A stretch of 64,000 nt of DNA from Eledone cirrhosa (Eukaryota), in NCBI GenBank assembly GCA_964016885.1, contig OZ024749.1, positions 26,660,001 to 26,724,000 of the forward strand, in the 5' to 3' direction. A program made the translations under genes and the position numbers. The notes below the pieces were generated by a model. The model saw only the letters and a list, made by a program, of their open reading frames with translations. It was not told the DNA's origin and searched no databases. This document shows, piece by piece, positions 12,913 through 20,243 of the stretch; the first letter of the stretch is position 1, and each line of letters starts with the position of its first letter.

Positions 12913-13546
12913 GACGAAGAAACCGTCGCGCACGCATTCATACACTGCCCGGGCGTTACCGACCTGTGGGGCTATGTAGAACGACTATTGTCGCGGGTGG
13001 GACCAATCCGGTTGACCACAGAGTCCATTGTCATGATCAAACCGCCACCCTCCTTCAAAAACGAAGGAGAGGCGGTTTTCCGTTGTGTGATAGCTATGGC
13101 GAAAGAGGTTGTATGGTGGACAAGGTTGAAAGGGCTGAGGTCAGACACCTTTCTCTCCGGCCAACAACTGATTCTTTTTTTCAAATACCACTTTGGAAGA
13201 AGAATCAGGATGGAGAGAGAGGTGCTGTACCCCAGCAAGTTTTATGAAAGGTGGGTGAAAGTGGTGAGAATGGCCCGAGTGAATGGGCCTGCTCTCTATA
13301 TCAGCCTGTAGGTTGAGGAAAAAGAGGAAGAGAGGAAGGGGGTAAAAACTCTTCGTACTCCTGGAGATGAGGGTTGCACATTTTTTCGGGGGCATGTGTT
13401 ACCCATATGAACTGTCTCCCCCTATTGGGGAAAATCGACTAATTTTTAATTGCATTTGTGATAATATTTTACACGTTTTTATTGTATGTAAACTTCCCCC
13501 TTTGTATTTGTCCCCTTCTTTTGTGCCCCTGTGGCTAATAAAGAAA
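12913..13546 (+). mobile_element. 5'-truncated Tx1-like copy (ends ...ALYISL*; diverged 3'UTR)
   Basis: Translates to DEETVAHA...RMARVNGPALYISL*; ends AATAAAGAAA followed by (TCTA)n. Confidence 0.92.
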
Positions 13547-13580
13547 CATATCTATCTATCTATCTATTTGTCTGTCTGTC

Positions 13581-14397
13581 AACCCTTGGAGAGTCGCTGG
13601 ACATGGAAGAAGACGAACTGGCCAGCCTGTTCGGTAGGACTTTCGGCCCAGGACCAATGGACAACTTCCAGAAGTCACTGGCCTGGCAGTGCTACCGGGG
13701 GGCTCTACCCGTTCGAGAGAGGCTCTACAGACACGGGCGCCCGAGCAGGGATCCCTCAAAAAAGATTTGCCCTAGATGCGTGCGTCACGAAGAAACCGTT
13801 GCGCACGCATTGGTGCAATGTCCGGGCGTGGCTGATCTGTGGGGCTACGCCGAACGACTGCTGTCGCGGGTGGCGCCGATTAAATTGACCGCCGAGTCCG
13901 TGATGACAATCAAACCGCCTCCCCTCTTCACAAAGGAAGCAAAGGCGGTTTTTCTGTGCGTAATAGCCATGTTGAAAGAGGTTGTTTGGTGGACACGATT
14001 GAAAGGTCTGAGGTCAGGCAACTTCCTCTCTGGCCATAGTCTGGTCTACTTCTTCCGATATCACTTCGGAAGAAGGATAAGAATGGAGAGAGAGGTGCTT
14101 GGCCACAGGCAGTTTTATGAAAGGTGGGTGATAGTGGCGAGAATGGCTCGTGTAAATGGGCCTTCTCTGTATACCATCCTGTAGGTAAAGAAGTAAAGGA
14201 GAGGGGAGCACCTTCTCCATGTGCTCCCCGGGCAAAGGATTGCACACTTTTTCGGGGGGGGTGCAACCCCCATCACGTCCCCTCCCTTTTGAGGTTATTT
14301 TCGATTATTTTCATGTTACACCCTTTCTACTCGATTATATGTAAACTCCCCCTTTGTATTTGTCCCTTCTTTTTATGCCTTTATGGTAAATAAAGAA
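13581..14397 (+). mobile_element. 5'-truncated Tx1-like copy (ends ...SLYTIL*) with 23-bp target-site duplication
   Basis: LGESLDMEEDELASLFG...YTIL*; atctatctatttgtctgtctgtc repeated at 13558-13580 and 14398-14420. Confidence 0.92.
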
Positions 14398-19300: not shown

Positions 19301-19834
19301 GGACCTATGGACAACTTCCAGAAGTCCTTGGCCTGGCAGTGCTACCGAGGGGCTCTGCCCGTTCGGGATAAGCTCTACAGACACGGGCGCCCGGGTAGGG
19401 ACCCCTCGAAAAAGATCTGTCCCAGATGCGTGCGCGACGAGGAAACCGTCGCGCACGCATTGGTGCACTGCCCGGGCGTTGCCGATCTGTGGGGCTATGT
19501 TGAACAACTGCTGTCACGGGTGGGACCAATTAGGTTGACCACCGAGTCCATTGTAACGATCAAGCCGCCTCCCCCCTTCAAAAATGAAGGAGAGGCGGTC
19601 TTCCTCTGTGTAATAGCCATGGTAAAAGAGGCTATATGGTGGACGCGTCTGAAAGGGCTGAGGTCGGACACCTTTCTCTCCGGCCAACAACTGGTCCTTT
19701 TCTTCCGATACCATTTCGGAAGAAGGATCAGGATGGAGAGAGAGGTGCTCCACTCCAGCCAGTTTTATGAAAGGTGGGTGAAAGTTGCGAGAATGGCCCG
19801 TGTGAATGGGCCTTCTCTCTACCTCAGCCTGTAG
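16397..19834 (+). CDS. Retrotransposon ORF2 (APE endonuclease + reverse transcriptase + C-terminal CCHC), 1145 aa, uninterrupted
   Basis: EN motifs LNARGL, CE, VYAP, GDWN, YLDRF, SDH; RT motifs SPGLDG, FRPITLLN, DQSKAFDRV, RQGCPLS, YADD, LLG; Tx1-type GYWKLN and GGLG; CPRC...ETVAHALVHC. Confidence 0.97.
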   Translation: MAVLRVGCLNARGLGSPWKQAKLLSDLRSQCVNVMVICEARISSMRQLTPTFDDFEMHASLCQPGGGGGVVVLLQKHLGLATQTVHLDPEGRLVVLDLGNGEGEAFRLVAVYAPFGAMRSDFFHRLETFLGTSRSLLLVGDWNGILDARWDYVGACPDRGGCNSLKGLIGRFDLADRYRLDFPTVPTWTWSNNSGQSRSYLDRFLVRIKDRDFLSCPEMLMVGYSDHKLVTCVVHLDRTHRQGPGYWKLNLSLPASRAYRDRIRTLVKEQLTGAIVNNRWWGSLKREIRVVSIGVSKELASDRNRKERELVVNVEEAMRSGNVARVQASRTVLNQFFDAKHEGCVVRSKIRALGNEGTKAVSWARVTEAKSGIKSTIRSLRDQDGRLILEPKQMCEAFQRHFAELFGRGGEPVGDVDFGPYLDGLPRLSDREARSCDGPISAAEIGDVLSLCGKRKSPGLDGLPYELYINMPDLFPDLLEAVYCNWQQNGRIPCSVTKGVVSLVRKDENKGDDISNFRPITLLNAELKILAKVLAKRLALVVGGLVGDAQTCAIPSRSIHDNLHLMRYIIERVGNEPGFGGALINLDQSKAFDRVDHGYLDAVLAAAGFGPVFRGWITAMHSSRICSRIKVNGYLSEPFEITRSIRQGCPLSSLLYVLTLEPLLRKLELLQGIPLEPGLRKAVSAYADDVTVMVSTASEIEAIGTLLEEYERLTGAKLNRDKSVALQLGEWRGKAMSCDGIVGRWTEGPVKLLGVWFGPDLQVEKNWGEVTNRVFALTQKWAECKLSLKGRAEVANAYIASVIYYRLTVVPCPGEILAKMERALFYFLWKKRSPLVRRSICCQHPLKGGLGMPWLKMRKHALRLRHLHVFLTGQPVWAPFVRRAFPRLVSLTELQSWVKQRPRKLGDWHTECAQALTALWQADPAIDGDSISSFYRGLVVSGCDDALGEALGMEEDELASLFGRTFGPGPMDNFQKSLAWQCYRGALPVRDKLYRHGRPGRDPSKKICPRCVRDEETVAHALVHCPGVADLWGYVEQLLSRVGPIRLTTESIVTIKPPPPFKNEGEAVFLCVIAMVKEAIWWTRLKGLRSDTFLSGQQLVLFFRYHFGRRIRMEREVLHSSQFYERWVKVARMARVNGPSLYLSL

Positions 19835-20243
19835 GTGGAACAGAAAGGAGGGAGCACCCTCTCTTTGTGCTCCCGTGGAGAAGGGTCGCACACTTTTTTC
19901 GGGGGTGTGTGTGACCCCAAAACGATCCCTCCCTATTGAGGATCTTCTTGTTATTATTTTGTTTGTTATATTTTTCTTACTCGATTTTTATGTAAACTCC
20001 CCCCACCCATGTACATGTCCCTTTCTTTTGTGCCCTAGTGGCAAATAAACAGAAATTTGTCTGTCTGTGTGTCTGTCTGTCTGTCTGTGTGTGTGTCTGT
20101 CTGTCTGTCTGTCTGTGTGTCTGTCTGTCTGTCTGTCTGTCTGTCTAGCTGTCTGTCAGCCGCCACAATTACAGAGGAAATGTTATGTCAGCTGGAAATG
20201 GATATATACATATCTGTATACACACATTTCTATATATATATTT

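What the first reader, a model, noticed from the sequence alone, without database searches (positions are those of the whole stretch)
12913..20087. (TCTA/TCTG)n-specific Tx1 retrotransposon forming a serial tandem of three subfamilies, one apparently intact
Seen: all four copies in the window lie in (TCTR)n in the same orientation relative to the repeat and end at AATAAA-(c)agaaa without polyA. A rare atttg variant of the microsatellite appears three times (13566, 14406, 20055), recording successive 23- to 33-bp target duplications. Established: Tx1-group elements include microsatellite-specific families (Kibi, Koshi in fish). Inference: a tetranucleotide-specific APE endonuclease, possibly still active; targeting of GATA/GACA repeats may be undescribed.
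Basis: partly seen in the sequence, partly recalled or inferred. Interest (0 to 1): 0.75.

Follow-up and report, generated by a model that had tools for sequence, protein, structure and literature searches.

The report
Octopus LINE switched GATA to GACA
Three related jumping genes, likely from an octopus, sit head-to-tail in one GATA/GACA repeat; across the genome the older lineages sit at GATA and one younger, likely still active lineage sits at GACA, a one-letter change of landing site within a known kind of repeat-seeking element.

Summary
Targeting is confirmed; the 'rare atttg' argument is only partly right. The window holds two 5'-truncated copies (lineages A, B) and an intact copy (C) of an L1/Tx1-group LINE, plus a fourth copy at 202-475. 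A-type ends are followed by NN-TATCT 10,039 times and NN-TGTCT 32 times; C-type ends by TGTCT 219 and TATCT 28 of 297. The TCTG lineage nests inside TCTA lineages on an RT tree. The repeat also lies on the 5' side, so it is a target, not just a tail. The atttg at 20055 is the standard C junction (181 of 297): the TT is element-encoded. Only 13566/14406 record a clean duplication (22-23 bp). Full-length C copies carry a (TCTG)n leader. One contig gives an empty allele of a young C copy at another locus, so that insertion is likely polymorphic. Microsatellite-targeting Tx1 elements, including TTCC/TTTC tetranucleotide ones, are known, and this scan already noted GATA targeting elsewhere in this genome. 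GATA/GACA targets were not found in my searches. Whether endonuclease or RNA pairing sets the one-base choice is untested.

The parts
12779..12911 (+). Degenerate (TCTA/TCTG)n tract upstream of copy 1; 12887-12911 is the 5' copy of copy 1's 25-bp target duplication
12912..13548 (+). Copy 1, lineage A, 5'-truncated (ORF2 C-terminus + 3' UTR); ends AATAAAGAAA plus lineage dinucleotide CA
   Evidence: 97% to nearest sampled copy
13549..13581 (+). Spacer 1: 3' duplication of copy 1 (C>T variant gives atttg at 13566), overlapping the 5' duplication of copy 2 (13559-13580), plus one extra A
13582..14398 (+). Copy 2, lineage B (TCTA type), 5'-truncated; exact 22-23-bp target duplication
   Evidence: 99.1% to nearest sampled copies
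14399..14438 (+). Spacer 2: 3' duplication of copy 2 (atttg at 14406), then copy 3's 5' duplication and likely (TCTG)n leader
14439..20057 (+). Copy 3, lineage C (TCTG type), full length; AATAAA at 20044, AGAAA ends 20055, element-encoded TT at 20056-20057
   Evidence: 20 substitutions from nearest sampled copies
14613..16373 (+). ORF1, 586 aa, with a CCHC zinc knuckle (weak Pfam match, E 0.066, below cutoff)
16397..19834 (+). ORF2, 1145 aa: APE endonuclease, reverse transcriptase, zf-RVT; endonuclease catalytic positions align to human L1
16748..16756 (+). Endonuclease M-R-S motif after the catalytic tyrosine; tracks the TCTG lineage (candidate specificity residues, untested)
20058..20157 (+). 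Downstream (TCTG/TGTG)n tract; first 11 bp are copy 3's exact 3' duplication
202..475 (-). Copy 4, older C-like 5'-truncated copy inserted in (TCTA)n, same polarity to the repeat
   Evidence: 95% to nearest sampled copy

Best explanation
This is a stack of three lineages of a probable Tx1-clade LINE of an octopod that sit at the repeat motifs C^TATCT (lineages A, B) or C^TGTCT (lineage C), likely because the endonuclease nicks the purine-rich strand at TA/GA or CA/GA. Shown: junctions are AGAAA + lineage-specific dinucleotide + target, with no poly(A); clear target duplications are mostly 16-24 bp; full-length C copies begin with extra TCTG units; the TCTG lineage is derived. Inferred: target-primed reverse transcription starts a few bases past AATAAA on an RNA that probably runs into the downstream repeat and pairs with the nicked strand. 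The cDNA end carrying (CAGA)n then likely anneals to the target's top strand, which shortens the visible duplication and adds pure repeat. Each insertion thus regenerates the target just upstream of the old copy, so stacks grow by serial insertion and later by unequal exchange. The endonuclease most likely sets the TCTA/TCTG choice, with RNA pairing refining it. In the window copy 1 came first, its downstream duplicate then acquired C>T, and copies 2 and 3 each used their own motif; their order is not resolved.
For: Genome-wide 3' junctions: A-type NN-TATCT 10,039 vs NN-TGTCT 32; C-type TGTCT 219 and TATCT 28 of 297. Sample of 192 ends: 166 have T[AG]TCT after the dinucleotide, 0 have poly(A). 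5' side: 58 of 64 full-length C, 17 of 21 full-length B, and 30 of 64 candidate truncated copies carry the repeat, against 0.4-0.9% background; 0 of the 64 truncated candidates have it reversed. TT is element-derived: C copies read TT|TG, TT|TA or TT|AG following the local repeat, and the 5' duplicate is usually preceded by TC. Leader: 46 of 52 full-length AGG-start copies end TCTGTCT[GC] vs 9% (any register) or 30% (in register) expected from their own 3' flanks. Empty allele: run X2 contig of 637 nt lies on both flanks of L059; its length equals a site with a 10-11-bp duplication and 12 added bases. RT tree: TCTG lineage nested among TCTA lineages, support 0.998 for its branch. 23 of 64 full-length C-type copies have both ORFs open (sample biased to copies most like the window's).
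Against: No biochemistry. 34 of 64 truncated candidates have fewer than 2 TCTR units in the last 24 nt. By eye many of those boundaries fall inside element sequence or at later insertions, and some have only a single TATCT/TGTCT, but I did not resolve each. C is leaky (28 TATCT, some AGTCT; copy 4 in this window is in TCTA). The endonuclease hairpin loop does not track the target: TNH occurs in both old TCTG and TCTA copies. The M-R-S motif does track it but arose once, so it is confounded with descent. The empty allele rests on one contig; 20 of its letters were not shown, and repeat slippage between haplotypes could also explain the 12 bases. Tx1 membership was not tested against named Tx1 sequences.
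Confidence: 0.72

Rival explanations
1. The endonuclease is loose (about C^TNTCT) and the TCTA vs TCTG choice is inherited through RNA: each source copy's transcript carries its own flanking repeat at both ends, and pairing with the nicked strand selects like sites.
For: No poly(A) at 0 of 192 junctions, and AATAAA lies only 8 nt from the last element base, so the RNA probably ends inside the downstream repeat (inference from canonical polyadenylation spacing, recalled). The 5' leader matches the target. The hairpin loop is shared by TCTA and old TCTG copies. Target-like RNA ends improve priming in SART1Bm and R1Bm (PMC7265360 passages).
Against: A-type ends are 314:1 TATCT:TGTCT, stricter than one-base pairing differences would easily give (inference). 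C copies with TA or AG junctions do not form clear own clades; T3_1 (TG junction) is nearest to T2a_4 (AG junction). Lineage B's full-length copies mostly have untemplated bases, not a repeat leader, at the 5' junction.
Confidence: 0.2
2. The repeat is only an element-encoded tail and leader that expands after random insertion; there is no target preference.
For: TT and a TCTG leader are element-derived; some copies have only 5-10 bases of repeat on the 3' side (L220, L239, G032).
Against: Repeat lies well upstream of the leader in 58 of 64 and on the 5' side of truncated copies that lack the leader. Duplications include locus-specific variant units on both sides (G055, G069, L175, L184, window copy 2). 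The L059 empty allele already contains the degenerate repeat.
Confidence: 0.03
3. The window's tandem arose by segmental duplication or unequal exchange rather than serial insertion.
For: Some arrays elsewhere do show it: G061_1/2 differ by 4 and T2b_1/2 by 0 substitutions with identical spacers.
Against: The three window copies are only 77-84% identical, belong to different lineages and have different 5' ends and duplications.
Confidence: 0.02

Closest known systems
Kibi (TC)n and Koshi (TTC)n of teleosts; crocodilian Tx1-1/5/6_Crp, Tx1-1_Gav, Tx1-2/3/5/8_AMi in (TTCC)n/(TTTC)n (PMC4494074, passages and section 15 read; PMC3812793, passages)
   Same: APE-type Tx1-clade LINEs inserted in microsatellites, including tetranucleotide ones.
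   Different: Target unit here is TCTA or TCTG (GATA/GACA), in a mollusc; two coexisting young lineages differ by one target base. Relationship to Kibi/Koshi was not testable (no sequences at hand).
R1Bm and SART1Bm (R1 clade; PMC7265360, passages)
   Same: APE-type, site-specific; target-like RNA 3' sequence is reported to aid accurate priming.
   Different: Different clade and targets (28S rDNA, telomeric TTAGG); SART1 uses a poly(A) tail, these copies show none.
L1-Tx1 families of Octopus vulgaris (PMC13282606, passages and one supplementary table row)
   Same: 13 recently active L1-Tx1 families with 421 insertions are reported in an octopus.
   Different: The passages and the one supplementary file held say nothing on target sites; whether these are the same families was not tested.
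Human LINE-1 ORF2p (PDB 8sxt)
   Same: Best solved-structure match, E 6e-51 over residues 24-876; endonuclease and RT catalytic positions align.
   Different: L1 has a weak TTAAAA preference (PMC3812793 passage) and a poly(A) tail.

Membership tests
L1/Tx1 group non-LTR retrotransposon | ORF2 with N-terminal APE endonuclease, RT and C-terminal zinc-binding region | tested here: met
   Pfam Exo_endo_phos, RVT_1, zf-RVT (the last just under its cutoff); L1 ORF2p best PDB match, far ahead of R2
L1/Tx1 group non-LTR retrotransposon | Two ORFs, 5' truncations and target-site duplications, no LTRs | tested here: met
Tx1 clade | RT phylogeny groups with named Tx1 elements (Tx1L, Keno, Kibi, Koshi) | not testable with these tools
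   No named Tx1 sequence was returned; the tree uses unnamed homologues, an Argonauta protein and a medaka protein
Tx1 clade | ORF1 with CCHC zinc knuckle (feature recalled, not from a call) | tested here: inconclusive
   C-x2-C-x4-H-x4-C present in ORF1; Pfam zf-CCHC E 0.066, below cutoff
Target-specific Tx1 families (criterion of PMC4494074) | A given target in more than 20% of flanks | tested here: met
   58 of 64 5' flanks and 56 of 64 3' flanks with at least 3 TCTR units; 166 of 192 junctions T[AG]TCT
Kibi/Koshi/crocodilian microsatellite group | Target (TC)n, (TTC)n, (TTCC)n or (TTTC)n | tested here: not met
   Targets are TATCT/TGTCT; a few copies lie in (TC)n-rich flanks (L139, L215)
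Endonuclease-determined site specificity | Sequence-specific nicking by the isolated endonuclease | not testable with these tools
   needs in vitro assay

The most novel reading that the evidence does not exclude
The target of this LINE is inherited through RNA, not protein: transcripts carry the source copy's flanking microsatellite at both ends, so a lineage switched from GATA to GACA by landing once in GACA and has since homed to and lengthened GACA tracts. That would be a naturally RNA-retargeted APE retrotransposon and an active maker of tetranucleotide microsatellites in octopod genomes.
Probability: 0.2. Interest if true: 0.78.

Novelty: new variant of a known kind. Interest (0 to 1): 0.5.

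Why it matters
How APE-type retrotransposons pick microsatellites is described as not well understood (PMC3812793 passage). Here two young sister lineages with intact ORFs (B and C, about 82% identical in DNA) differ by one base in their target. That makes the endonuclease-versus-RNA question directly testable by swaps. The family is very abundant (over 13,000 exact 3'-end motifs), duplicates and apparently adds repeat units at each insertion, and so may shape the GATA/GACA content of this repeat-rich genome.

Tried and rejected
1) atttg as a rare tag of three duplications: rejected for 20055. 2) The window copy as source of the TTTG tail: rejected; TTTG junctions occur in copies 5-7% diverged and the window copy is 20 substitutions from its nearest sampled relatives. 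3) Endonuclease hairpin loop as the specificity switch: not supported. 4) A first automated 5'-boundary scan was too noisy and was replaced. 5) Empty allele at the window locus itself: not seen; repeats were skipped, so this is no evidence either way. 6) Expression: no RNA holder listed. 7) Spliced ORF1-only retrocopy of lineage C: 0 matches for the one exact junction tried. 8) Protein atlas gave no answer. 9) Kojima and Fujiwara 2004 and Anzai 2005 were not held; they are cited only through other papers. 10) Literature: ten searches found no description of a GATA/GACA-targeting Tx1. Repbase, Repbase Reports, subscription journals and the target labels inside Fig. 3 of PMC4494074 could not be seen and may already hold it. 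11) L219_2 was dropped from the 65 full-length copies as a double count; T3_10 is likewise a double count of T3_9.

Full report
Anatomy. The stretch 12912-20057 holds three head-to-tail copies of one LINE family. Copy 1 (12912-13546) and copy 2 (13582-14398) are 5'-truncated. Copy 3 (14439-20055) is full length, with ORF1 of 586 aa carrying a CCHC knuckle and ORF2 of 1145 aa with endonuclease, RT and zf-RVT. The best solved relative is human L1 ORF2p (E 6e-51), with the endonuclease catalytic positions aligned. A fourth, truncated copy lies at 475-202 on the minus strand. The three tandem copies are 77-84% identical at their 3' ends. The closest named homologue is an Argonauta hians protein, 68% identical over the RT region, so the host is likely an octopod. 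The genome is 3.0 Gb.

Abundance and lineages. Exact 3'-end motifs number 11,901 for the copy-1 type (A, which covers several sublineages), 1,711 for the copy-2 type (B) and 297 for the copy-3 type (C, which includes a few copies of sister lineages), with control counts of 0-4. I sampled the 40 best matches to copy 3's end (39 fetched), most of the C-motif hits on contigs C1-C2, and the first 30 hits each of A and B; this gave 192 distinct 3' ends. Each lineage ends AATAAA..GAAA, then a lineage-typical dinucleotide (C: TT 65 of 82; B: TC 20 and TA 12 of 32; copy-1 cluster: CA 16 and TA 8 of 25), then the target. 166 of 192 continue T[AG]TCT and none has poly(A).

A one-base split in target. 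Genome-wide, A-type ends are followed by NN-TATCT 10,039 times and NN-TGTCT 32 times. C-type ends are followed by TGTCT 219 and TATCT 28 times out of 297. In the sample B gives TATCT in 29 of 32. On an RT tree of 43 sequences the TCTG copies form one branch (support 0.998) nested among TCTA lineages, with an (ATT)n-flanked relative further out. TCTG targeting is therefore derived. Both motifs are available in the window background (CTATCT 35, CTGTCT 20).

Target, not tail. 58 of 64 full-length C-type copies have at least 3 TCTR units at -48..-8 from their start, against 0.4% of background windows. 17 of 21 full-length B copies and 30 of 64 candidate truncated copies have at least 2 units in the last 24 nt, against 0.9%, and none of the 64 has the repeat reversed. 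The other 34 include boundaries inside element sequence or at later insertions, and sites with a single motif; I did not resolve each one. Where the repeat is imperfect, duplications can be read: 11, 16, 17, 18, 21, 22 and 24 bp in C and about 16-21 bp in A/B (read by eye). Some insertions lie at a lone TATCT or TGTCT outside an array (L102, L128, L239), so the recognised unit is short and arrays are hit because they are dense in it (inference).

The atttg variant. 181 of 297 C-type ends read ...CAGAAATTTG. Junctions read TT|TG, TT|TA or TT|AG according to the local repeat, while the 5' duplicate is usually preceded by TC. The TT thus comes from the element, and the atttg at 20055 is the normal C junction. 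The pair at 13566/14406 is a real record: copy 2's exact 22-23-bp duplication. Copy 1's duplication is 25 bp with its single mismatch at that base, so the variant most simply arose in copy 1's downstream duplicate before copy 2 inserted. The order of copies 2 and 3 cannot be fixed.

A repeat leader. 46 of 52 full-length AGG-start copies are preceded by TCTGTCT[GC], against 9-30% expected from their own 3' flanks. Genome-wide, 104 starts read TCTGTCTG-AGGATAGTAGACG; a differently ended start motif counts 112. In informative loci 4-15 bases of pure repeat lie between the duplication and the start. At locus L059, run X2 has a 637-nt contig lying on both flanks without the element, and run X1 of the same sample has contigs on the filled junctions. 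The length 637 equals a site with a 10-11-bp duplication and 12 added bases. This is one contig with 20 letters unseen, and slippage is an alternative. It still indicates a heterozygous, very recent insertion into a pre-existing repeat. B copies mostly show untemplated bases at the 5' junction instead.

Activity and arrays. 23 of 64 full-length C-type copies have both ORFs open (biased sample), the closest dispersed pairs differ by 8 substitutions in 5.6 kb, and B has intact copies too. One array holds nine C copies with spacers of 12-1152 bp. Different spacers and 13-36 differences point to serial insertion; identical spacers with 0-6 differences point to later unequal exchange.

Mechanism. 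Shown are the junction patterns above. Inferred: a nick on the purine-rich strand at TA/GA or CA/GA; priming a few bases past AATAAA, probably aided by RNA that runs into the repeat, as reported for R1Bm and SART1Bm (PMC7265360 passages); second-strand cut about 20 bp downstream; and annealing of the leader in C. In the endonuclease, the hairpin loop does not track the target, but an M-R-S motif after the catalytic tyrosine marks nearly all TCTG-type copies read, against E-R-P, E-R-A, A-R-P, P-R-P or Q-S in TCTA types. This is a single origin, so only a candidate. That this loop faces DNA in L1 is recalled, not tested.

Comparison. Tx1-clade targeting of (TC)n, (TTC)n, (TTCC)n and (TTTC)n is published (PMC4494074, passages and section 15; PMC3812793 passages; PMC4640811 passages). 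Recently active L1-Tx1 families are reported in Octopus vulgaris without target data in what I saw (PMC13282606 passages and one supplementary file). PMC13708176 passages added nothing on Tx1. Ten searches found no GATA/GACA-targeting family, but Repbase and subscription papers were not visible. This scan had already noted GATA stacking in this genome (e1-9510316); two word searches for the TCTG/GACA lineage returned nothing. Membership of the Tx1 clade rests on architecture; no named Tx1 sequence was available for a tree.

Verdict. A real, recently active microsatellite-targeting LINE of a known kind, with a target not found in print and a clean one-base target switch between living lineages. 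Interest 0.5.

Noticed in passing
window 16370 and 19834: A strong splice donor (AG|GTAAGT) overlaps the ORF1 stop and an acceptor-like CTGTAG|G coincides with the ORF2 stop, as earlier scan notes reported. One exact spliced junction for lineage C had 0 genomic matches.
   Followed up: partly
L170 (G000:C1:17005600-17012700): A sister family (about 70% DNA identity) with the same 3' end sits in tandem in (ATT)n and branches outside the TCTA/TCTG lineages; its hairpin loop differs.
   Followed up: partly
G000:C3:358729419-358781088 (L241-L246): Array of nine full-length C copies, mixing serial insertions and recombinational duplicates; four-copy arrays also on C2.
   Followed up: yes
window 12744-12783: A short A-rich stretch ending AATAAAGAAA-TA-TATCT inside the upstream repeat may be an extremely truncated fifth copy, or chance.
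   Followed up: no
window 27593-28970: Perfect 687-bp inverted repeat with a 4-nt centre, overlapping a 466-bp tandem of 2.3 copies; fold-back element or assembly artefact.
   Followed up: no
C-type loci, e.g. L199-L240: The C lineage changes its 5' end stepwise along a ladder-like tree (TCG-TTGATAG, TCT-TTGATAG, TCTC-AGGATAG, TCTG-AGGATAG) while keeping the TCTG leader.
   Followed up: partly
L102 (G000:C1:2562790-2565806): An A-type copy inserted at a single TATCT inside what looks like another LINE's endonuclease coding sequence (identity read by eye), with a 7-bp duplication.
   Followed up: no
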